A stretch of DNA of 44,545 nucleotides from Escherichia phage 6948, in sequence record OL362272.1, one strand, 5' to 3'. This document shows positions 5,959-14,138 of the stretch, in pieces. The translations under genes were made by a program, and so were the position numbers. How positions within the stretch are numbered: the stretch's first letter is position 1; every line of letters begins with the position of its first letter. Under the pieces are notes generated by a model. The model was not told the DNA's origin and ran no database searches. It was given only the letters and a program-made list of their open reading frames with translations.

Positions 5959-7671
5959 ATGCTTCAAAGATTAAGTGCTTACTTGGTGAAGTACAAGAGT
6001 AAACTAACAGGTACTATTGAGCGCCTGCTATCTGATAAACTATCGGATACAATAGATGTTGCGGATTTTGGAGTTACTCCATCTTCCAATGACAACAGGC
6101 AAGCACTTCAAGCTGCGTTCAATGCAGTCAGAGTGTTAGGCGGTGGCACTGTATTAGTCACTAAAGCTGGAAAATACAAACTCAGTGGTACTGTTGAGAT
6201 ATTTGCTAATACACACTTCAAGGTGGCTAAAGGTGTAACATTTGTACGTGACTACGAAACAGGAGATACGCTATTCAGATTATCACAAGGGCAAGCTAGT
6301 AATGTAACAGTCAGTGGAGGTATCTATGAAGGCAATGGTCACACTAAGGGAGATACACCTTTTGTAGTATTTGCATCTACTAGTAATAATGATTTGAAGT
6401 TTGAAGGCATAACAGTTAACAATGTAGTGGACTACCACGCCATAGATTTAGCAGATTGGAACAACGTAGTTATTCGTGATTGTAAATTCCTAGGTTTTAA
6501 GAATACAGGCAGTCGTAACTTCTCAGAGGCTATACAGTTAGACCCAGGTCTTATTACAGTTGGTCACTATGTACAGTCAAGTGGTATGCTGGTGGAGAAT
6601 TGCTATGCTGGTCCAAACACAGAATCAGGGTTTGGAGGTTATGGTGCACTAATTGGAAATCACGCCTCAGCTTACGGTGTACAGGACAACAATATCCGTA
6701 TCTTGAATTGCACTACAGATGGTGCTCTCTTTGCAGGTGTACGTGTATTTAACTGGAAAAACTGGACAGTGCGTGGTTGCACATTTAGGAACTCTAATGC
6801 AAGAGGTGTCCATGTTACACCTGTCTCATCTCAGACTAAACCGCAGGGTACTCGACAAGGTAGTATTGTAGATTGCACTTTTGATGGCGTAAGGACACCA
6901 GTGCTAATTGCTGCACCATCTTGGCCTTTTACCGATATTAGTGACATTTGGCATGACCATATTGAAATTTCTAATAATACTATGATCCTCACAGAGGATG
7001 TATCCTATGGTGTAGATGCAAGGTGGTGTAAGAATTTAATTGTAAAAGGTAATACAGGCTCTGGTGGCTTAGGGTTAATCGGTTTACGCTTTGGGACAAA
7101 ATACCACATCGAAGGTAATACTTGGGAAAACGGAAGAGGTAGTGGGATTTGGTTAGGTGAGTCTGATGCTACTACATTCATTGGTACTGGTTTATCAGGA
7201 GAAGGTATACTTAGTCGTAATATCTTCTCTAAATTAGGGCAATATGGTATTCATGTAAACTGCAAGGCTAGCTGTCTAGTGATTAAAGCCAATAATATGA
7301 AGGAAGTATCTACAGCTGAAGCAGGTAGGCACTTCATTAGTATAGACACAGGGGCTAACAACATCCTAGTAGAAGGTAATATTGGAGTAGACGGAGAAAG
7401 CCCTAACAAGCCAAGCCTTGGTATTCGTGTTACTTCTTCTTGTTCCAATATTAAACTCATTGGCAATGATTGCTATGGCACACAGGCGCCTCAGAATAAC
7501 CAAGGAGTTGGTTCTAGTACGGTGATTGTTTATGGGCTAAATGGCAACCCTACAACTTTAGGCGTAGGTGCACCTGTAGGCTCTTTAGCAACTGATATCA
7601 ATGGTTCTGGTGGTAGTACATTGTACGTTAAAGAATCTGGTACATCTGCTCAAGGTTGGGTTGCAAAGTAG
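5959..7671 (+). CDS. tailspike 2: pectate-lyase-like right-handed beta-helix depolymerase
   Basis: 570 aa, RBS AAAGGAGG; N-terminal DVADFGVTPSSNDNRQALQAAF...GGGTVLV resembles the start of pectate-lyase-3/GH28-like phage depolymerases; repetitive NxxVxG/GN turns. Confidence 0.75.
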   Translation: MLQRLSAYLVKYKSKLTGTIERLLSDKLSDTIDVADFGVTPSSNDNRQALQAAFNAVRVLGGGTVLVTKAGKYKLSGTVEIFANTHFKVAKGVTFVRDYETGDTLFRLSQGQASNVTVSGGIYEGNGHTKGDTPFVVFASTSNNDLKFEGITVNNVVDYHAIDLADWNNVVIRDCKFLGFKNTGSRNFSEAIQLDPGLITVGHYVQSSGMLVENCYAGPNTESGFGGYGALIGNHASAYGVQDNNIRILNCTTDGALFAGVRVFNWKNWTVRGCTFRNSNARGVHVTPVSSQTKPQGTRQGSIVDCTFDGVRTPVLIAAPSWPFTDISDIWHDHIEISNNTMILTEDVSYGVDARWCKNLIVKGNTGSGGLGLIGLRFGTKYHIEGNTWENGRGSGIWLGESDATTFIGTGLSGEGILSRNIFSKLGQYGIHVNCKASCLVIKANNMKEVSTAEAGRHFISIDTGANNILVEGNIGVDGESPNKPSLGIRVTSSCSNIKLIGNDCYGTQAPQNNQGVGSSTVIVYGLNGNPTTLGVGAPVGSLATDINGSGGSTLYVKESGTSAQGWVAK

Positions 7672-7682
7672 TAGGAAGTTGA

Positions 7683-7832
7683 ATGCCATTAATCAAATCA
7701 GTTAAGCAAAGTGCTGTACGCCAGAACACAGAAGAACTTATTCAATCAGGACGTGACCCTAAGCAAGCCTATGCGATTGCCAAGGATGTACAACGTCGTG
7801 CTATGAAGAAACCTTCTGCATCTTCTGCGTAA
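7683..7832 (+). CDS. small hypothetical protein
   Basis: 49 aa basic peptide, RBS AGGAAG upstream; not in ORF track (<60 aa). Confidence 0.3.
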   Translation: MPLIKSVKQSAVRQNTEELIQSGRDPKQAYAIAKDVQRRAMKKPSASSA

Positions 7833-7902
7833 GCAGGTTAATATCTTAGTGTACACAAGGGCAGACCTAGGTTTGCTCTTAGTGTAATCCAAAGGAGGTA
7901 AC

Positions 7903-8031
7903 ATGCTGAAAGATGGTTGGGTTTCATATGACCCTACAGACCCTACGAATTGGCTACAGGTTATCGCTATAGCTTGTGCAGGTAGCCTATTGGCTGCCAT
8001 GATGTATTCATTATGGATGTACACAAAGTAA
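7903..8031 (+). CDS. small hydrophobic protein
   Basis: 42 aa, strong RBS AAAGGAGG 7 nt upstream; one predicted TM helix (LQVIAIACAGSLLAAMMYSLW). Confidence 0.35.
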   Translation: MLKDGWVSYDPTDPTNWLQVIAIACAGSLLAAMMYSLWMYTK

Positions 8032-8680
8032 CCAAAGTCAAAATTTTGATGTAGGCGTGTGTCAGCTCTCTCGCCCTCGCCCTCGCCGGGTTGCCCCCAT
8101 AGGGTGGCCTGAGGGAATCCGTCTTCGACGGGCAGGGCTGATGTACTCCTTGGATAGTACAAGGGGGGGCGGAGGGAACGCCTAGGGAGGCCCAGGAATG
8201 GCTTAGTGGTGGACAAGGTGATTACCTTAGTGAAGCCTCTTAGTGCAGTCCTGAGGCCATTCAGGGCCATTCCTGAGCGTTTGACAGGGTGGGAGGGTGT
8301 GGGCTATCTGTTCGTTTCGTTCACTCCGCTTGCGCTACGTTCACTCGCTCACGTGTACCTTAGGTTATTCCTTGATGGATAGCTTAGGTTAGCCTTAGTG
8401 GACTACCTTAGTTAAAGCCTTAGTGCTTCACTTAGTATCAGCTTAGTAGTGTGCCTTAGTAAGTCTTAGTGTCTTCTCTTAGTGATTGCACATGCAAGCA
8501 TGTAAGATGCCATTAGGTCGCGGTCGGTAGACCGCTAAAGAAGAAGTATAGTAATAAGATGCAGTAGGAGGAACACCAGAAACCTAGCCAACCTAGCCTA
8601 TCCTAGCTCTGTATCTATTGCTTTTCCTTAGTCTAACATGTGAGACAACCTAGATTTATCTTAGTGATGATATCTTAGTG

Positions 8681-8709
8681 TTGACAAGGCCATCTCAATA
8701 TAATACTAT
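8681..8709 (+). promoter_or_regulatory. candidate host sigma70 early promoter
   Basis: TTGACA (8681-8686), 17-nt spacer, TACTAT (8704-8709); upstream of the first early ORFs. Confidence 0.3.
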
Positions 8710-8781
8710 TCATCACGTAGGCAGCACTGAGGTGCTTAGTAGCCAGCTAGTAAGGCATACGAAGAGACTAGCGCTTACATT

Positions 8782-8794
8782 GCTCTTTAACAAT
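8782..8794 (+). promoter_or_regulatory. conserved early-region 13-mer GCTCTTTAACAAT (copy 1), candidate RNase III processing element
   Basis: Exact 13-mer occurs three times in the early region; the same motif sits just upstream of gene 0.3 in T7, as recalled. Confidence 0.3.
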
Positions 8795-8810
8795 TTGCTT
8801 AGTGTAACCT

Positions 8811-9032
8811 ATGTATGCCGTGGTTAATTACTTATTGAATGAGGGATTAACTATGACATTAAACAACCGTGAACTATCCGTTCTCTTCACTCTGTTGTGC
8901 TACATGATTCGTAACAACAAATTGCTTACAGATGACGAGTTGGCACTGTATCACCGCTTTCTTAACGAAGGTTGGACCGATACAGTTAATCAACACCGTA
9001 ACATGATAGATGAGTTGAGGGAGGGTAAATAA
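8811..9032 (+). CDS. early hypothetical protein
   Basis: ORF of 73 aa; an internal ATG at 8853 with GAGGGA upstream is an alternative start. Confidence 0.35.
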   Translation: MYAVVNYLLNEGLTMTLNNRELSVLFTLLCYMIRNNKLLTDDELALYHRFLNEGWTDTVNQHRNMIDELREGK

Positions 9033-9256
9033 TGTATCAACATGAGGTATTCTTTGAATCAGCTAGCGAAGCTATTCGCTTCTTTGAGGACATGCTGCGA
9101 AATGGTGTAGGTGTGCATGTACATAGCTTTCTACTAGATTATGACACTGAATATCACCGAGTTACCTTAGTATCTGAGTATGACAACCAAGTCATTACTG
9201 AGTATCTAGGCAGTGAAGATTACGATTACGATGAAGTAATCACGACAAATATCTAA
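9032..9256 (+). CDS. early hypothetical acidic protein
   Basis: 74 aa, RBS GAGGGAGGG; acidic, Tyr/Asp/Glu-rich C-terminus (SEDYDYDEV). Confidence 0.45.
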   Translation: MYQHEVFFESASEAIRFFEDMLRNGVGVHVHSFLLDYDTEYHRVTLVSEYDNQVITEYLGSEDYDYDEVITTNI

Positions 9257-9264
9257 ATTAACTG

Positions 9265-9293
9265 TTGACAGCCACGGCATACAAGGTTACATT
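9265..9293 (+). promoter_or_regulatory. candidate host sigma70 early promoter
   Basis: TTGACA (9265-9270), 17-nt spacer, TACATT (9288-9293). Confidence 0.3.
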
Positions 9294-9326
9294 AAGCATC
9301 AAGACGGCGACGTCTTTAAACATCCC

Positions 9327-9339
9327 GCTCTTTAACAAT
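9327..9339 (+). promoter_or_regulatory. conserved early-region 13-mer GCTCTTTAACAAT (copy 2)
   Basis: Exact repeat; preceded by palindrome AAGACGGCGACGTCTT (9301-9316). Confidence 0.3.
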
Positions 9340-9385
9340 ACGGTTTGTGTCTTGATAGGCTAACTAACTAACTAAGGTAATTATC

Positions 9386-9496
9386 ATGAAAGGTTTAATT
9401 TGTGTAGAACGTATGGTCAATGGTAAACTTGAAATATTACCACTGGAAAACCAATCTAGCTTCAAAGAGTGGTATGGCTGTTTCTCACTGATTTAA
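9386..9496 (+). CDS. small early hypothetical protein
   Basis: 36 aa; preceded by the multi-frame stop string TAACTAACTAACTAA and an A-rich RBS; flanked by inverted repeat CTTGATAGGC (9349) / GCCTATCAAG (9513). Confidence 0.25.
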   Translation: MKGLICVERMVNGKLEILPLENQSSFKEWYGCFSLI

Positions 9497-9538
9497 GGTA
9501 AAGGCTGGCACTAGTCAGCCTATCAAGGCGCAAACCAA

Positions 9539-9551
9539 GCTCTTTAACAAT
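9539..9551 (+). promoter_or_regulatory. conserved early-region 13-mer GCTCTTTAACAAT (copy 3), upstream of the Ocr-like gene
   Basis: Exact repeat about 95 nt upstream of the gene 0.3 start. Confidence 0.3.
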
Positions 9552-9647
9552 TTGGATGGTAGCTTCTTAGTCTGGATAGGTTAAACCTAGGGGATTCTCT
9601 TGAGTCTCCTATAATGTAACCTAACTAACTAAATGAGGATTAATAAC

Positions 9648-10001
9648 ATGGCTATGTCTAATATGACTTACTCTCAGGTTTACAACACCGCTCATGCTGC
9701 ATTAGTTGAACGTATCTGGAATGATGCTATTGATTGTATTGATAACGCACATGATGCAATCCATGATGCGGCGGATAGTGCTGTACCAATCTATTATGCT
9801 GACATCTTCTCCGTGATGGCGAGTGAAGGAATTGATCATTTCTTCGAAGACTCCGGCCTGATGCCAGACACTAAGGATGTAACCGTAGTATTGCAAGCCC
9901 GTATCTATGAGCAACTCACAATTGATCTATGGGAACGTGTTCAGTATATGATTGTTGAATACGTCAACTCCGCCGAATATTTAGAAGAAGAAGAGGAATA
10001 A
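9648..10001 (+). CDS. ocr: Ocr-like DNA mimic, anti-restriction protein (T7 gene 0.3 homologue)
   Basis: 117 aa starting MAMSNMTY..., contains [45 protein letters not shown] and a poly-Glu C-terminus, matching T7 Ocr as I recall it; RBS GAGGA. Confidence 0.85.
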
Positions 10002-10003
10002 GA

Positions 10004-10117
10004 ATGGAAAAGCTATACAACTTCATCTTTTCAGACGGTGTAACCCTGAAGTGTTCCCTGCGTTTCGCACAAATTCGTGAGGAAGTACTAGGCACTACAT
10101 ACAAACTATTTAGCTGA
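10004..10117 (+). CDS. small early hypothetical protein
   Basis: 37 aa; ATG 3 nt after the Ocr stop. Confidence 0.25.
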   Translation: MEKLYNFIFSDGVTLKCSLRFAQIREEVLGTTYKLFS

Positions 10118-10130
10118 CACTATAAGAGAA
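10106..10130 (+). promoter_or_regulatory. variant phage-RNAP promoter-like site in the early region
   Basis: TATTTAGCTGACACTATAAGAGAAG; closest in this window to the SP6 form ATTTAGGTGACACTATAG but the initiating G is displaced. Confidence 0.4.
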
Positions 10131-10193
10131 GGCTTAACAAGGCGTTGCTACGGTAGCGCCTGATTAAACTTTCACTTACTAGGAGTTAAGACT

Positions 10194-10421
10194 ATGGATT
10201 TAGATAGCATCATTATGGCATTTGCTCTTATTGGCTTAAGCTGGTGCTCCTATCACCTTTACCGTGAGTTCTTATTTGATAAAGCTAAACGCAAACTAAG
10301 AAAGGAAGGCGGCAATTACCTTTGTGTAAGAGGTGGGCTTGTAGAATACATTGCACCTAACGGCACGGAATGCGCCATTAGCAAAGATGCATTTATAGAA
10401 ACGTGGCATTACATCAAGTAA
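10194..10421 (+). CDS. early hypothetical membrane protein
   Basis: 75 aa, RBS TAGGAG; N-terminal hydrophobic helix IIMAFALIGLSW. Confidence 0.45.
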   Translation: MDLDSIIMAFALIGLSWCSYHLYREFLFDKAKRKLRKEGGNYLCVRGGLVEYIAPNGTECAISKDAFIETWHYIK

Positions 10422-10484
10422 CTAGCCTATAGCCTACCTGAGTGGGCTATGTGATATTTACTTACACTATATAAGGTGACTATT

Positions 10485-11408
10485 ATGACTACTGAAAACA
10501 TCCTCCTGTCTGTCCGTGAAGCTGCAACCGCTGAGATTAAGCAGCATTTGGATAATATCGGCACTTCTTACATCAAAGTTGGCGCTTGTCTGAATGAATT
10601 ACGCGGTGATTTCGAAGGTCAAAAAGACTTTTTAGCTTATGTAGAATCAGAGTTCGGCATCAAGAAAGCACAATGCTACAAGCTGATGAGTGTAGCCCGT
10701 GTCTTTGAAGGAGACGAACGCTTTAAAGGTGTGGCTATGCGTGTAATGCTGGCGCTTGTTCCTTTCGCTGATGAAAATATGATCATGGAGAAGGCCGCAG
10801 AACTCGCCGCAGAGGGCAAGCTGGACACTAACGCCGTAAACGCCCTGATTGATCCTAAGAAAGAGACAAAGGCCGAGACGGTACAACCTAAGGTTGAGTC
10901 GGTAAAACCGCAGGAGAACGCGACTGAGGCCGCAGAAACTATGCAAGGACATGCAACCTTTGAGGATTTCATATTAGAGAAGGCGAAAGAGGAGCTACAA
11001 AGTGTGCCGCCAGCAAGTGAGTCGGATGACGACAAATCAGCACCGTGGGAAGAGGAAAGCAAGCCGGAAGCGCCAAAGGCCGCGCCACTGGACAACACGG
11101 CTAACACCGAGAGTGCCGCTATTGCTGGCCTTCTGGCACAAATTAAAGCACTGACTGAGCAATTACAGGCAGCCAATGACCGCATCGCCTCCTTAAGTAG
11201 CGCACGCGAAAGCAAGAAGGCAGCCGCGCCTATGCTGCCGCAATTCAAATCTTCCTGCTTCTATGCTCGCTTAGGTTTAAGCGCTGAGGAGGCAACGAAG
11301 AAAACAGCAGTTAACAAGGCACGCCGCGAACTGGTTAAGCTAGGCTACGGCGAAGGCCATGAAGCATGGCCCTTAATCTCTGAGGCAGTAGAAGAATTAA
11401 CTAAGTAA
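10485..11408 (+). CDS. early hypothetical protein (gp0.7 slot; no kinase motifs seen)
   Basis: 307 aa from ATG 10485 (RBS AAGGTGA); structured N-terminal part followed by acidic/Ala-rich coiled-coil-like region. Confidence 0.55.
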   Translation: MTTENILLSVREAATAEIKQHLDNIGTSYIKVGACLNELRGDFEGQKDFLAYVESEFGIKKAQCYKLMSVARVFEGDERFKGVAMRVMLALVPFADENMIMEKAAELAAEGKLDTNAVNALIDPKKETKAETVQPKVESVKPQENATEAAETMQGHATFEDFILEKAKEELQSVPPASESDDDKSAPWEEESKPEAPKAAPLDNTANTESAAIAGLLAQIKALTEQLQAANDRIASLSSARESKKAAAPMLPQFKSSCFYARLGLSAEEATKKTAVNKARRELVKLGYGEGHEAWPLISEAVEELTK

Positions 11409-11471
11409 CCTTATCGGTGGCATCTTCTTAGGTGTCACCTATTAAGGTTTCTTTCACTAGGAGTAAACAAG

Positions 11472-14099
11472 ATGCAAGACCTACACGCTATTCAACTTCA
11501 ACTTGAAGAAGAAATGTTTAACGGCGGTATCCGTCGCTTTGAAGCGGACCAACAACGCCAGATTGCATCCGGTAATGAATCAGACACGGCATGGAATCGC
11601 CGCTTATTGTCCGAGTTAATCGCGCCAATGGCTGAAGGTATTCAGGCATACAAGGAAGAGTATGAAGGTAAAAGAGGCCGTGCACCGCGTGCATTAGCTT
11701 TCATTAACTGCGTAGAAAACGAAGTGGCAGCATATATCACGATGAAAATCGTTATGGATATGCTGAACACGGATGTAACCTTGCAGGCTATAGCCATGAA
11801 TGTAGCTGACCGCATTGAGGACCAAGTACGTTTTAGCAAGCTGGAAGGTCACGCCGCCAAATACTTTGAGAAAGTTAAGAAGTCACTTAAGGCAAGTAAG
11901 ACTAAATCATATCGCCATGCGCACAACGTAGCGGTCGTGGCTGAGAAGTCAGTAGCTGACCGTGACGCTGATTTCTCTCGCTGGGAGGCATGGCCTAAAG
12001 ACACCTTGCTGCAAATTGGGATGACCTTGCTTGAAATCTTAGAGAATAGCGTATTCTTCAACGGGCAACCTGTCTTCCTCCGCACCTTGCGCACTAATGG
12101 TGGCAAGCATGGTGTTTACTACTTACAGACCAGTGAGCACGTAGGGGAGTGGATTACAGCATTTAAAGAACATGTAGCGCAACTTAGTCCAGCCTATGCT
12201 CCTTGCGTCATCCCTCCGCGTCCGTGGGTATCACCTTTTAACGGCGGTTTCCACACTGAGAAAGTAGCAAGCCGTATTCGTCTGGTAAAAGGAAACCGCG
12301 AACACGTCCGCAAGCTGACCAAAAAGCAAATGCCAGCGGTTTACAAGGCTGTTAACGCTTTGCAGGCGACTAAGTGGCAGGTTAATAAAGAGGTTTTACA
12401 GGTTGTGGAGGACGTTATACGTCTAGACCTCGGCTATGGTGTACCTTCCTTTAAACCACTCATCGACCGTGAGAACAAGCCAGCTAATCCGGTGCCGTTA
12501 GAGTTCCAGCACCTGCGAGGCCGTGAACTGAAAGAAATGCTTACGCCGGAACAATGGCAAGCCTTTATCAACTGGAAAGGTGAATGTACTAAGCTGTACA
12601 CCGCTGAAACTAAGCGCGGAAGCAAATCGGCGGCAACCGTTCGCATGGTTGGTCAGGCCCGTAAATATAGCCAGTTCGACGCAATCTACTTCGTGTATGC
12701 ACTGGACAGCCGCAGCCGTGTATACGCGCAATCTAGCACGCTCTCGCCGCAATCAAACGACTTAGGCAAGGCATTGCTCCGTTTTACCGAAGGGCAGCGT
12801 CTTGATAGCGCTGAGGCGCTTAAGTGGTTTTTGGTGAACGGGGCGAATAACTGGGGTTGGGATAAGAAAACTTTTGACGTGCGCACCTCTAACGTGCTGG
12901 ATGGCGAATTTCAAGACATGTGCCGCGACATTGCAGCCGATCCGCTGACCTTCACTCAATGGGTAAATGCTGATTCCCCTTACGGCTTCCTTGCATGGTG
13001 CTTTGAATATGCGCGTTATCTGGATGCACTGGATGAAGGCACGCAAGACCAATTCATGACGCATCTACCCGTCCATCAAGACGGTAGTTGCTCTGGTATC
13101 CAGCACTATAGCGCGATGTTACGCGATGAAGTAGGTGCGAAAGCAGTAAACCTTAAGCCTTCTGACTTCCCTCAAGATATTTATGGCGCGGTTGCGCAGG
13201 TTGTTATCCAGAAGAATTACGCCTACATGAATGCAGACGATGCAGAGATTTTCACATCTGGAAGCGTCACACTTACAGGTGCAGAACTGCGTAGCATGGC
13301 TAGTGCGTGGGATATGATAGGAATCACTCGCGGATTGACCAAAAAGCCCGTAATGACACTACCTTATGGCAGCACACGTCTAACCTGCCGTGAATCAGTG
13401 ATTGATTATATCGTTGATTTGGAAGAAAAAGAGGCCCAACGAGCTATTGCGGAAGGGCGTACCGCCAATCCTGTACATCCTTTTGATAATGACCGTAAGG
13501 ACAGCCTGACACCTAGTGCAGCTTATAACTATATGACGGCTTTAATCTGGCCTTCTATTTCGGAAGTGGTTAAAGCTCCTATAGTGGCAATGAAAATGAT
13601 TCGTCAGCTTGCCCGTTTCGCAGCTAAAAGGAATGAAGGCTTAGAGTATACCTTGCCTACTGGCTTCATCTTGCAACAAAAGATTATGGCTACCGACATG
13701 CTACGCGTATCCACTTGCTTGATGGGTGAAATCAAGATGAGTCTACAGATTGAGACTGATGTAGTGGATGAAACGGCTATGATGGGCGCTGCTGCTCCTA
13801 ACTTTGTTCACGGGCATGATGCTAGTCATCTCATCCTGACTGTATGTGACCTCGTTGACAAGGGCATTACATCCATCGCAGTCATCCATGATTCTTTCGG
13901 TACTCACGCAGGCCGTACAGCCGATCTACGTGATAGTCTAAGGGCAGAAATGGTGAAGATGTATCAAGGCCGTAATGCCCTGCAAAGCCTGTTAGATGAG
14001 CATGAAGAACGCTGGTTAGTAGACACCGGAATCCAAGTGCCAGAGCAAGGAGAGTTTGACCTTAACGAAATCTTAGTATCTGACTATTGCTTCGCATAA
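11472..14099 (+). CDS. single-subunit DNA-directed RNA polymerase (SP6-type)
   Basis: 875 aa; motifs [31 protein letters not shown] and C-terminal ...YCFA typical of T7/SP6 RNAP; N-terminus [16 protein letters not shown] resembles SP6 RNAP as recalled. Confidence 0.95.
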
Positions 14100-14107
14100 T
14101 ATTAATA

Positions 14108-14138
14108 GGCCATTCCTTCGGGAGTGGCCTTTTCTTTT
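14108..14138 (+). terminator. intrinsic terminator after the RNAP gene (early terminator analogue)
   Basis: Stem GGCCATTCC / GGAGTGGCC with TTCG tetraloop followed by TTTTCTTTT. Confidence 0.6.

What the first reader, a model, noticed from the sequence alone, without database searches (positions are those of the whole stretch)
8782..9551. Triplicated 13-mer GCTCTTTAACAAT and flanking inverted repeats in the early leader
The exact 13-mer occurs at 8782, 9327 and 9539, each 40-100 nt upstream of an early ORF. As I recall, an almost identical string sits at the RNase III site upstream of T7 gene 0.3. A 10-bp inverted repeat (CTTGATAGGC at 9349, GCCTATCAAG at 9513) brackets the small ORF at 9386-9496. 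These are likely processing or regulatory elements of the host-transcribed early mRNA.
Basis: partly seen in the sequence, partly recalled or inferred. Interest (0 to 1): 0.45.

Follow-up and report, generated by a model that had tools for sequence, protein, structure and literature searches.

The report
Three rrn-type boxA sites in phage leader
The thrice-repeated 13-mer is the same "boxA" signal that E. coli uses on its ribosomal RNA operons to make RNA polymerase termination-resistant; in this SP6/K1-5-like phage each copy sits directly in front of a conserved RNA helix that brackets early genes, so the early operon copies the layout of an rRNA operon.

Summary
GCTCTTTAACAAT occurs exactly at 8782, 9327 and 9539, on the + strand and nowhere else in the window (0 of 100 shuffles give even one copy). 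The inverted repeat is real and longer than reported: 25 nt, at 9342-9366 / 9512-9536.

The 13-mer is not an RNase III site. It is identical to the E. coli rrnB leader boxA, the NusB/NusE loading site, and to the T7 and T3 early-leader boxA. T7 boxA mutations have a published phenotype. In T3 the curated R0.3 stem-loop starts 28 nt downstream of the 13-mer.

The likely RNase III substrates are the helices that begin 2-12 nt after each boxA:
- H1: 8796-8825 / 9270-9298, 29 bp, encloses two genes.
- H2: 9342-9366 / 9512-9536, encloses a small ORF.
- H3: 9563-9638, a T7-type two-tier hairpin before ocr.

H1 and H2 show compensatory changes across Autographiviridae, and G·U pairs far outnumber A·C pairs, which points to + strand RNA pairing. 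E. coli rrnB has the same layout: boxA, then directly the 5' arm of the 16S leader-trailer helix.

The boxA-helix modules behave as exchangeable cassettes across phage subfamilies. BoxA in T7-like phages is known. I did not find the iterated boxA-plus-long-range-helix architecture described. Nus-factor binding and RNase III cleavage are untested here.

The parts
8681..8709 (+). P1, sigma-70-type promoter (TTGACA-17-TACTAT); predicted start about 8716
   Evidence: 10 of 12 consensus matches. No phage-RNAP promoter lies between 3893 and 16708, so host RNAP must transcribe this region.
8782..8794 (+). boxA copy 1 (GCTCTTTAACAAT), about 66 nt into the P1 transcript
   Evidence: Identical to the rrnB leader boxA and the T7/T3 boxA. 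Unpaired in the MFE fold apart from a 2-bp contact.
8796..8825 (+). 5' arm of long-range helix H1 (type A); begins 2 nt after boxA1
   Evidence: Duplex -48.1 kcal/mol versus -24.2 +/- 2.4 for shuffled partners. Covariation.
8853..9032 (+). Early gene 1 (59 aa, phrog_9275, unknown function); cargo inside H1
9032..9256 (+). Early gene 2 (74 aa, phrog_6403, unknown function); cargo inside H1
9270..9298 (+). 3' arm of H1; overlaps the spacer and -10 of promoter P2
   Evidence: The adjoining TGACA of the -35 is conserved in all 12 aligned relatives.
9265..9293 (+). P2, sigma-70-type promoter (TTGACA-17-TACATT); predicted start about 9300
9301..9316 (+). 6-bp hairpin AAGACG-GCGA-CGUCUU at the 5' end of the P2 transcript, 10 nt before boxA2; sits where boxB sits in rrn
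   Evidence: Conserved in K1-5, K1E, ACG-C91, mutPK1A2 and CrRp3.
9327..9339 (+). boxA copy 2, about 27 nt into the P2 transcript
9342..9366 (+). 5' arm of long-range helix H2 (type B); begins 3 nt after boxA2
   Evidence: -40.7 kcal/mol versus -21.9 +/- 2.0 for shuffled partners. Covariation.
9360..9375 (+). CTAACTAACTAACTAA: TAA stops in all three frames just before the Shine-Dalgarno sequence of ORF 9386
   Evidence: The same motif precedes the ocr Shine-Dalgarno sequence at 9621-9632.
9386..9496 (+). Small ORF (36 aa, no PHROG match); cargo inside H2. Other phages carry unrelated ORFs at this position.
9512..9536 (+). 3' arm of H2; ends 2 nt before boxA3
9539..9551 (+). boxA copy 3
9563..9638 (+). 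H3: local two-tier hairpin (lower stem 9563-9583/9617-9638, internal loop, upper stem 9588-9597/9602-9611). Same build and position as the T7/T3 R0.3 RNase III site before gene 0.3.
   Evidence: (z = -3.5). T3 curated R0.3 stem-loop.
9648..10001 (+). ocr (gene 0.3 homologue); first gene after the last boxA module
   Evidence: phrog_2568, E = 2.8e-46
14107..14138 (+). Intrinsic-terminator-like hairpin plus T-run directly after the phage RNA polymerase gene; probable end of the early operon

Best explanation
The three 13-mers are rrn-type boxA elements on the early transcript that host RNA polymerase makes from P1 and P2.

Inferred from what is established for rrn operons and for T7: as each boxA emerges in the RNA it is bound by NusB-NusE(S10). 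With NusA, NusG and SuhB this converts host RNAP into a fast complex that resists Rho-dependent and intrinsic termination. That complex can then traverse the roughly 5.4-kb, hairpin-rich early operon up to and through the phage RNAP gene.

Shown here: each boxA is followed within 2-12 nt by the 5' strand of a helix.
- H1 is 29 bp and encloses genes 1 and 2.
- H2 is 24 bp and encloses a small ORF.
- H3 is a local T7-type hairpin before ocr.
- This is the layout of the rrn leader, where boxA directly abuts the 5' arm of the 16S leader-trailer helix.

Inferred: the boxA-bound complex keeps the 5' arm tethered at the RNA exit channel until the 3' arm is made. The helix forms, and RNase III then cuts it. 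This releases individual early mRNAs with base-paired ends. Because each cut severs the upstream boxA from the nascent chain, a fresh boxA sits immediately after each 3' arm. P2-initiated polymerases also need their own copy.

The conserved module ends (boxA, arm, three-frame stops, Shine-Dalgarno sequence and ATG on the 5' side; small hairpin, arm, boxA on the 3' side) also act as joints where early-gene cassettes are gained, lost and swapped between phages.
For: Identity:
- The 13-mer equals the E. coli rrnB leader boxA (L003 317-329) and fits the consensus GYTCTTTAANA (PMC5725501).
- It equals the T7 (813-825), T3 (781-793) and K1F (669) early-leader copies.
- T7 boxA is genetically active. 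Mutations in it make Gp2 dispensable, and host transcription of T7 is described as boxA anti-terminated (PMC3709561, citing Savalia 2010).

Placement:
- All copies are on the transcribed strand, downstream of sigma-70-type promoters.
- They lie in a 12.8-kb stretch with no phage-RNAP promoter, upstream of a terminator-like site after the RNAP gene.

Conservation:
- The 13-mer occurs 1-3 times, always on the early strand, in Vectrevirus, Zindervirus, Acadevirus, Tuodvirus, Ulipvirus, Eracentumvirus, Przondovirus, Phimunavirus, Teseptimavirus and Teetrevirus, while its flanks differ.
- The rare variants (GTTC..., ...AAC, ...AAA) fall at positions the consensus leaves free.

Helices:
- The MFE fold of 8716-9660 gives H1, H2 and H3.
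- Duplex energies lie about 10 SD beyond shuffled partners.
- Type B helix, 16 sequences: 98.8% of cells paired, 3 pairs with changes on both sides, covariation score exceeded by 0 of 500 shuffles.
- Type A helix, 12 sequences: 95.5% paired, 6 pairs with changes on both sides, 0 of 500 shuffles.
- Both arms carry coordinated 2-nt deletions in K22PH164C1 and VLCpiA2b. Era103 has an unrelated arm pair with the same layout.
- G·U cells outnumber A·C cells 49 to 4, and the + strand duplex is more stable than the - strand one. Pairing is therefore in the + strand RNA.

rrn parallel:
- In rrnB the 5' arm starts at 330, directly after boxA, and pairs with 2008-2048 just past 16S (-53 kcal/mol).
- The tethering/looping model and the overlap of the RNase III site with this helix are published (PMC4807359, PMC10250234).

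Cassette behaviour:
- Alignment A4 shows conserved module ends around unrelated ORFs.
- CrRp3 has no type B module, this phage has one and K1E has two.
- PHB19 has a T7/T3-type leader with a type B module inserted at boxA.
Against: - No experiment on this phage or on any SP6-like phage was found. NusB/NusE binding, antitermination and RNase III cleavage are all inferred.
- Three further two-tier hairpins downstream (10105-10200, 10415-10480, 11400-11475) have no boxA after them. The 'reload after every cut' logic therefore cannot be general. In T7 a single boxA upstream of R0.3 evidently suffices.
- KP34 has no boxA in its first 6.5 kb, so the element is not universal in the family.
- No promoter was detected directly upstream of copy 3.
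- The sequences used for covariation are related and were partly chosen by a boxA pattern, so the shuffle statistics overstate independence. At the level of distinct column/pair types the G·U versus A·C contrast is only 11 to 3.
- Inverted repeats flanked by direct repeats are also what a mobile element looks like.
Confidence: 0.78

Rival explanations
1. One reading: the 13-mer is itself (part of) an RNase III processing site, as at T7 R0.3.
For: T7 has the identical string about 65-77 nt upstream of where I recall the R0.3 cut to be (nt 890, from memory of Dunn and Studier 1983). Each copy in the window lies next to a helix long enough for RNase III.
Against: RNase III needs about 20 bp of duplex, and the 13-mer is predicted single-stranded. 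In T3 the curated R0.3 stem-loop is 822-875 while the 13-mer is at 781-793. In the T7 fold the hairpin likewise starts downstream of it. The string is 13/13 identical to the rrn boxA, a single-strand protein-binding site.
Confidence: 0.04
2. The pattern is a footprint of mobile DNA. Type B (and perhaps type A) modules would be miniature elements with 20-29-bp terminal inverted repeats that insert into a pre-existing boxA and duplicate it as a target-site duplication. The repeats would then have no RNA-level function of their own.
For: The arrangement is direct repeat (boxA), inverted repeat, cargo ORF, inverted repeat, direct repeat. 'Filled' and 'empty' sites exist: PHB19 versus T7/T3, and this phage versus CrRp3. 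The same ends surround unrelated ORFs in different subfamilies. Terminal repeats recognised by one enzyme would also co-vary.
Against: - G·U cells outnumber A·C cells 49 to 4, and the + strand duplex is more stable. DNA-level repeats predict symmetry.
- The same boxA-then-helix layout occurs with three unrelated arm families and in rrnB itself.
- The type A 3' arm is 12-29 nt from the next boxA and overlaps a conserved promoter.
- No transposase is in the region.
- No copies were found in plasmids or, in a capped scan, in bacterial genomes.
- Even if true, it would not explain why the duplicated target is a perfect host boxA.
- It is compatible with my explanation as an account of how cassettes spread.
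Confidence: 0.08
3. The boxA copies mainly act as translational or gene-specific repressors, as at E. coli suhB. There a boxA-nucleated Nus complex within about 50 nt of the start codon blocks ribosome access and allows Rho termination, which would tune the output of each early gene.
For: PMC5725501 shows boxA-dependent repression of suhB and says regulation from more than 50 nt upstream is possible. The copies here lie 59, 71 and 109 nt from start codons.
Against: In T7 the genetics point to antitermination: boxA mutations relieve the need for Gp2, the host-RNAP inhibitor (PMC3709561). The helices place the Shine-Dalgarno sequences inside loops or lower stems in any case. Repressing ocr, the first defence against restriction, seems counterproductive.
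Confidence: 0.06
4. Decoy: abundant early RNA carrying three boxA copies titrates NusB/NusE/SuhB away from the host rrn operons and so contributes to host shut-off.
For: Overexpressed lambda nutL RNA titrates Nus factors and lowers rRNA expression (summarised in PMC4807359). Copy number rises to 3-4 in SP6-like phages.
Against: No data. T7 manages with one copy. The tight coupling of each copy to a helix arm is not explained by titration.
Confidence: 0.04

Closest known systems
E. coli rrn operon leader and spacer: boxB-boxA-boxC plus the 16S leader-trailer helix (rrnTAC; RNase III processing stem)
   Same: The 13-mer is identical. BoxA is followed directly by the 5' strand of a 25-40-bp long-range helix that encloses the cargo and is an RNase III substrate (PMC10250234). 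A second boxA follows the helix before the next cargo. A small hairpin precedes boxA2, in the boxB position.
   Different: The cargo is 0.15-0.5 kb of translated mRNA rather than rRNA. The arms share no sequence homology with rrn arms, apart from a weak UGUGU resemblance to boxC in type B arms. There are three modules in 770 nt. One 3' arm doubles as a promoter. The modules are exchangeable between genomes.
T7 / T3 early-leader boxA plus the R0.3 RNase III site
   Same: The 13-mer is identical, lies downstream of the host promoters and is followed by a two-tier hairpin before gene 0.3/ocr. Copy 3 plus H3 in this window is the positional counterpart. T7 boxA has a genetic phenotype (PMC3709561).
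   Different: T7, T3 and K1F have one copy and only a local hairpin. This phage has three copies, two of them coupled to long-range helices that enclose whole genes.
Lambda nutL/nutR (boxA + boxB, N-dependent antitermination)
   Same: Both use boxA and host Nus factors to make host RNAP processive on a phage early operon.
   Different: From established knowledge, lambda boxA deviates from the rrn consensus (CGCUCUUA) and needs the phage N protein bound to a downstream boxB hairpin. Here the boxA is the perfect rrn form, which by established knowledge works without N. The element order is rrn-like, and PHROG matches for the seven early ORFs scanned showed no N-like protein.
Non-rRNA cellular boxA sites: the suhB 5' UTR (PMC5725501) and CRISPR-array leaders (PMC7665894; title and abstract only, seen)
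   Same: A consensus boxA placed on a non-rRNA transcript recruits Nus factors. For CRISPR arrays it protects a long, structured, poorly translated RNA from Rho.
   Different: These are single copies, and I found no coupling to a flanking long-range helix described for them. suhB uses boxA for repression.

Membership tests
rrn-type boxA (NusB-NusE binding, Nus-factor antitermination element) | Sequence matches the gamma-proteobacterial boxA consensus GYTCTTTAANA / the rrn leader boxA | tested here: met
   All three copies match 11/11 and are 13/13 identical to E. coli rrnB leader positions 317-329 of L003.
rrn-type boxA (NusB-NusE binding, Nus-factor antitermination element) | Lies on the sense strand of a transcript made by host RNAP, downstream of a promoter | tested here: met
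   Sigma-70-type promoters at 8681-8709 and 9265-9293 lie upstream of copies 1 and 2. Copy 3 is reached by read-through. No phage-RNAP promoter lies between 3893 and 16708. Promoters are consensus matches only and are not mapped.
rrn-type boxA (NusB-NusE binding, Nus-factor antitermination element) | Single-stranded and accessible in the nascent RNA | tested here: met
   In the MFE fold of 8716-9660, boxA1 is unpaired except for 2 nt. BoxA2 and boxA3 share only a 4-bp UUAA contact. This is a prediction only.
rrn-type boxA (NusB-NusE binding, Nus-factor antitermination element) | Conserved as a block while the flanks diverge; variation only at consensus-free positions | tested here: met
   Caveat: many copies were collected with a boxA pattern. 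The unbiased evidence is the positional alignments A1, A2 and A4.
rrn-type boxA (NusB-NusE binding, Nus-factor antitermination element) | Binds NusB-NusE and confers boxA-dependent, NusB-dependent read-through of terminators | not testable with these tools
   Only indirect support: the identical T7 element has an antitermination-type genetic phenotype (PMC3709561).
Leader-trailer helix / RNase III processing stem of the rrn type | Long-range helix of at least about 20 bp enclosing the cargo, with its 5' strand adjacent to boxA | tested here: met
   H1 is 29 bp, spans 502 nt and starts 2 nt after boxA1. H2 is 24 bp, spans 194 nt and starts 3 nt after boxA2. Energies lie about 10 SD beyond shuffles.
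Leader-trailer helix / RNase III processing stem of the rrn type | Pairing maintained by compensatory change in relatives | tested here: met
   3 and 6 pairs with changes on both sides, and covariation score and percent paired exceeded by 0 of 500 shuffles. Slid-register controls give 21-44% paired versus 95-99%. Coordinated indels and unrelated arm families appear.
Leader-trailer helix / RNase III processing stem of the rrn type | Cleaved by RNase III in vivo or in vitro | not testable with these tools
   No end-mapping data were found for any SP6/K1-5-like phage.
T7-type early RNase III site (R0.3, R0.5, R1 ...) | Intergenic hairpin with lower stem, internal loop and upper stem | tested here: met
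   Met for H3 (9563-9638) and for the hairpins at 10105-10200, 10415-10480 and 11400-11475. The consensus fold across genera is weak because of alignment problems.
T7-type early RNase III site (R0.3, R0.5, R1 ...) | The 13-mer itself forms part of the cleaved duplex | tested here: not met
   The 13-mer is single-stranded in the folds. The T3 curated R0.3 stem-loop at 822-875 excludes the 13-mer at 781-793.
Lambda-type nut site | BoxA followed by a boxB hairpin bound by a phage N protein | tested here: not met
   The element order is hairpin then boxA, as in rrn. No N-like protein appears among the early ORFs scanned. The boxA is the rrn form.
Miniature inverted-repeat mobile element with target-site duplication | Terminal inverted repeats immediately flanked by a direct repeat, with copies at unrelated sites or a cognate transposase | tested here: inconclusive
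   TIR-like arms with flanking boxA direct repeats and filled/empty sites are present. However, there is no transposase, all copies sit at boxA in early leaders, nothing was found in plasmids, and 120 bacterial hits all lacked an adjacent boxA. The G·U bias argues for RNA pairing.

The most novel reading that the evidence does not exclude
Early operons of enterobacterial T7/SP6-like phages are assembled from portable 'mini-rrn' cassettes. Each cassette has a perfect host boxA, a leader-trailer helix, three-frame stops, a Shine-Dalgarno sequence and a swappable small ORF.

In this reading the host rrn antitermination complex is hijacked for two purposes. It makes the polymerase processive, and it acts as an RNA chaperone that tethers the 5' arm so that long-range helices form around mRNAs and are cut by RNase III, with a reload site after each cut. 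The boxA repeats also serve as the recombination joints through which anti-host genes are traded across phage subfamilies.
Probability: 0.35. Interest if true: 0.65.

Novelty: new variant of a known kind. Interest (0 to 1): 0.5.

Why it matters
- Annotation: these sites are unannotated in all of the roughly two dozen public records inspected here, including the curated T3 record. Naming them boxA explains how host polymerase gets through a long, hairpin-rich early operon to the phage RNAP gene.
- A test system: the boxA-plus-helix modules are small and mutable. They offer a non-essential setting in which to test the proposed chaperone or tethering role of the rrn antitermination complex, which is hard to separate from ribosome assembly in rrn operons.
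- Host dependence: K1-5/SP6-like phages are phage-therapy candidates. Dependence on NusB, SuhB or RNase III would define host factors and resistance routes.
- Engineering: the modules are ready-made insulated expression cassettes (antitermination loader, translational stop, Shine-Dalgarno sequence, processing stems) for phage engineering. Their conserved ends mark where early anti-defence genes are exchanged.

Tried and rejected
- Rfam scan of 7600-11600 at E <= 10: only chance-level miRNA/snoRNA hits. No curated family covers boxA or these helices.
- IMG/VR scan with the 14-mer GCTCTTTAACAATT: 120 mostly random hits, uninformative. A 19-base pattern gave 15 useful contigs.
- Genome-contig scan with the 15-mer arm core: row-capped, all hits from unrelated taxa, and none has boxA within 30 nt upstream. 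These are chance matches, and the pattern was too short for 596 Gb.
- Plasmid search with the PhiM1 cassette: no match.
- Consensus fold of the H3 region across nine phages including T7: only 12 pairs and near-zero energy, because MAFFT cannot align the variable upper stems. Individual folds are the better evidence.
- Alignment A2 puts PM93 and phD2B one column out of register in the outer half of H1, so under-counts their pairing. Their own duplexes are intact.
- Literature: seven full-text searches for boxA together with T7-like or SP6-like terms found nothing on boxA in these phages. One search, a search for the string itself, found only a paper quoting the T7 leader sequence. One search found PMC3709561.
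- The SP6 genome paper and Savalia 2010 are not held. I therefore cannot exclude that the SP6/K1-5 genome papers mention these sites.
- A resemblance between type B arms (UUUGUGUCUUG) and rrn boxC (UCUGUGUGGG) was considered. I do not rely on it, because the match is short and the spacing differs.
Full report
**Observation.** The exact 13-mer GCTCTTTAACAAT is at 8782-8794, 9327-9339 and 9539-9551. All three copies are on the + strand, and there are no others in the 44,545-base window. None of 100 dinucleotide-preserving shuffles produced even one exact copy. It is the core of a 25-nt, 88% complementary repeat at 9342-9366 / 9512-9536. 8796-8810 and 8812-8823 pair with 9284-9298 and 9272-9283, which merge into one 29-bp helix.

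**Context.**
- The window is a circularly permuted genome of a Vectrevirus, an SP6/K1-5-like member of the Molineuxvirinae. It is 99% identical to 'Vectrevirus LI10P5' and 95-97% identical to several E. coli phages.
- By comparison with K1-5 (NC_008152, where copy 1 is at 710), the physical left end lies near window position 8073.
- Sigma-70-type promoters are at 8681-8709 (TTGACA-17-TACTAT) and 9265-9293 (TTGACA-17-TACATT).
- Phage-RNAP promoters (..GACACTATAGAAG) occur at 2197, 3872, 16709 and five later sites, with none between 3893 and 16708.
- A strong terminator-like hairpin plus T-run follows the phage RNAP gene at 14107-14138.
- The three 13-mers therefore lie at the start of a roughly 5.4-kb operon that only host RNAP can transcribe.

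**What the 13-mer is.**
- It is 13/13 identical to the boxA of the E. coli rrnB leader (L003 317-329, between promoter P2 and 16S). The rrnB spacer boxA differs by one base.
- It matches the boxA consensus for gamma-proteobacteria, GYTCTTTAANA (PMC5725501).
- T7 has the identical 13-mer at 813-825, between promoter A3 (start 750) and gene 0.3. T3 has it at 781-793 and K1F at 669. Era103 has GTTCTTTAACAAT at 1493.
- In T3's curated record the R0.3 RNase III stem-loop is 822-875, which is 28 nt downstream of the 13-mer. The T7 fold likewise places the hairpin after it.
- The T7 element is known by this name and is genetically active.

**What follows each copy.** I folded the predicted P1 transcript, 8716-9660.
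- H1: 8796-8825 pairs with 9270-9298 (29 bp, span 502 nt). It starts 2 nt after boxA1 and encloses genes 8853-9032 and 9032-9256.
- H2: 9342-9366 pairs with 9512-9536 (24 bp, span 194 nt). It starts 3 nt after boxA2, ends 2 nt before boxA3 and encloses ORF 9386-9496.
- H3: 9563-9638 is a local two-tier hairpin (lower stem, internal loop, 10-bp upper stem). It starts 12 nt after boxA3 and ends 10 nt before the ocr start codon.
- The boxAs themselves stay essentially unpaired.
- The best duplexes for the 36 nt after boxA1 and boxA2 are -48.1 and -40.7 kcal/mol. Shuffled downstream sequence gives -24.2 +/- 2.4 and -21.9 +/- 2.0.
- H3 folds with z = -3.5 and has the same build as the T7 R0.3 region.
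- The same computation on E. coli rrnB shows the identical layout. BoxA is at 317-329, the 5' arm of the 16S leader-trailer helix starts at 330, and the 3' arm is at 2008-2048, just past 16S (-53 kcal/mol). Published work describes this helix as 25-40 bp, overlapping the RNase III site, with boxA thought to tether the 5' strand near the RNA exit channel until the trailer is made (PMC10250234; PMC4807359).

**Relatives.** A distant blastn search found 161 phage records. Many distant ones match only window 9325-9390, which is boxA2 plus the H2 5' arm and the Shine-Dalgarno sequence. These include 31 Pectobacterium phages, K30, Peggy and Klebsiella phages.

I catalogued boxA in 35 early regions. 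Except for KP34, each has 1-3 copies, always on the early strand and never on the other.

Three kinds of element follow boxA:
- Type A arms: TTGCTTAGTGTAACCTATGTATGCCGTGG, pairing 500-820 nt downstream.
- Type B arms: GGYTWGTGTCTTGATAGGCT, pairing 200-350 nt downstream. The 3' arm ends 1-3 nt before the next boxA.
- Local two-tier hairpins before ocr.

Duplex energies are -33 to -53 kcal/mol.

Covariation:

| Helix type | Sequences | Cells paired | Pairs changed on both sides | Shuffles reaching covariation score | Slid registers paired |
|---|---|---|---|---|---|
| Type B | 16 | 98.8% | 3 (for example A-U 9 / U-A 7; U-A 13 / C-G 2 / G-C 1) | 0/500 | 25-44% |
| Type A | 12 | 95.5% (two sequences partly misaligned) | 6 | 0/500 | 21-41% |

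- Klebsiella phages K22PH164C1 and VLCpiA2b carry matching 2-nt deletions in both type B arms.
- Era103 has an unrelated arm pair 632 nt apart (-36 kcal/mol) that again starts 2 nt after boxA.
- G·U cells outnumber A·C cells 49 to 4, or 11 versus 3 distinct column/pair types. The + strand duplexes are 4-5 kcal/mol more stable than their - strand versions. Selection is therefore on pairing in the + strand RNA, not on a DNA-level repeat.

**Modularity.**
- An alignment of type B modules from six phages shows a conserved 5' block of about 58 nt: boxA, arm, stop codons, Shine-Dalgarno sequence, ATG.
- It also shows a conserved 3' block of about 50 nt: a 6-bp hairpin, the arm, then boxA.
- The blocks surround ORFs that are unrelated between this phage, SP6 and PhiM1. 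The ORF is nearly identical between K1E, mutPK1A2 (Molineuxvirinae) and K30 (Studiervirinae).
- CrRp3 has no type B module, this phage has one, and K1E has two plus a fourth boxA spoiled by a 1-nt insertion.
- PHB19 has a T7/T3-type leader with a type B module inserted exactly at boxA, which gives it two copies.
- SP6's third copy is GATCTTTAACAAT.
- The 3' arm of type A helices always overlaps a TTGACA-17-TACATT-type promoter. P2-initiated transcripts therefore start just after H1 and meet their own hairpin (9301-9316) and boxA2 within 27 nt.

**Mechanism.** Shown here:
- identity with the rrn, T7 and T3 boxA;
- placement on the host-RNAP transcript;
- conservation across genera;
- helices that co-vary in the + strand RNA;
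- the same layout as rrnB.

Inferred from established rrn and T7 knowledge:
- NusB-NusE binds each boxA and, with NusA, NusG and SuhB, makes host RNAP fast and resistant to termination.
- The tethered 5' arm pairs with the 3' arm when it emerges.
- RNase III cuts H1, H2 and H3, releasing separate early mRNAs with paired ends.
- A new boxA after each 3' arm, and after the internal promoter P2, reloads the factors.

I put the boxA assignment at about 0.85-0.9 and the RNase III/tethering part at about 0.6.

Points against:
- Three further two-tier hairpins downstream have no boxA.
- T7 needs only one copy.
- KP34 has none.
- Nothing here is experimental.

**Rivals.**
- The 13-mer as an RNase III site is contradicted by the folds and by the T3 annotation.
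- A mobile-element reading, with inverted repeats flanked by a duplicated target, fits the filled and empty sites. It does not fit the G·U bias, the unrelated arm families with the same layout, the rrn parallel, or the absence of a transposase and of copies elsewhere. It may still describe how modules spread.
- suhB-like translational repression and Nus-factor titration are possible side effects with no direct support.

**Novelty.**
- BoxA, the rrn leader-trailer helix and the T7 boxA are all known, so the core of the finding is a known kind of element.
- I could not find the iteration described: three copies, two of them coupled to long-range helices that co-vary and enclose protein-coding cassettes, shared and exchanged across at least eight genera.
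- None of the public records I inspected annotates these sites.
- The SP6 and K1-5 genome papers and Savalia 2010 were not available to me, so prior mention cannot be excluded.
- I rate it a new variant of a known kind, of moderate interest.

Noticed in passing
window 9360-9375 and 9621-9632: CTAACTAACTAA(CTAA) places TAA stops in all three frames immediately before the Shine-Dalgarno sequences of ORF 9386 and of ocr. There are three overlapping matches, all here, versus 0.27 expected. The motif is conserved in Koku, BP12B, phD2B and others. It looks like a built-in translational insulator between cassettes, and it also forms the 3' strand of the H3 lower stem.
   Followed up: partly
window 7845-8804, + strand: The heptamer CTTAGTG occurs 23 times in the window (8.1 expected; 0 of 100 shuffles reach 23). 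Twelve copies lie on the + strand within this 1-kb stretch, which spans the genome end, the terminal-repeat region and the leader up to the H1 arm (families D4, D5, D8, D9). Function unknown; possibly related to the genome ends or DNA entry.
   Followed up: no
window 10105-10200, 10415-10480, 11400-11475: Each downstream early intergenic region folds into a two-tier hairpin (z = -5.4, -2.6, -3.7). These look like T7-type RNase III sites, but none has an adjacent boxA. The first one gave a spurious both-strand 'mir-5879' Rfam hit.
   Followed up: partly
window 9265-9298: Promoter P2 (TTGACA-17-TACATT) is embedded in the 3' arm of helix H1, so its spacer and -10 co-vary with a sequence 500 nt upstream. 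The TGACA is conserved in all 12 aligned relatives, even where the arm sequence has changed (PM93, phD2B).
   Followed up: partly
window 9504-9519: A small conserved hairpin GCTGGC-ACTA-GTCAGC sits just upstream of, and overlaps, the H2 3' arm. It is kept by wobble changes and strand flips in SP6, Peggy, K1E and IMG/VR contig L131. It competes with the outer 5 bp of H2. Role unknown.
   Followed up: no
L125 (K1E) about 2238-2251; L124 (SP6) 1537-1549: Degenerate extra boxA copies. K1E has a fourth copy with a 1-nt insertion (GCTCTTTTAACAAT) after its second type B module. SP6's third copy is GATCTTTAACAAT. They may be decaying or weakened sites.
   Followed up: no
L275 (Escherichia phage PHB19) 405-806: This T7/T3-like phage has a type B boxA-helix cassette, with its own ORF, inserted exactly at the leader boxA. 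The result is a duplicated boxA next to an otherwise T7-like R0.3 region, a natural 'filled site' compared with T7 and T3.
   Followed up: partly
window 7580-7592: A near-copy of the 13-mer with two mismatches, GCTCTTTAGCAAC, lies inside the tailspike-like ORF 5959-7671, outside the early region. The number of two-mismatch matches in the window is within chance (12 of 100 shuffles reach it), so this one is probably coincidental.
   Followed up: no
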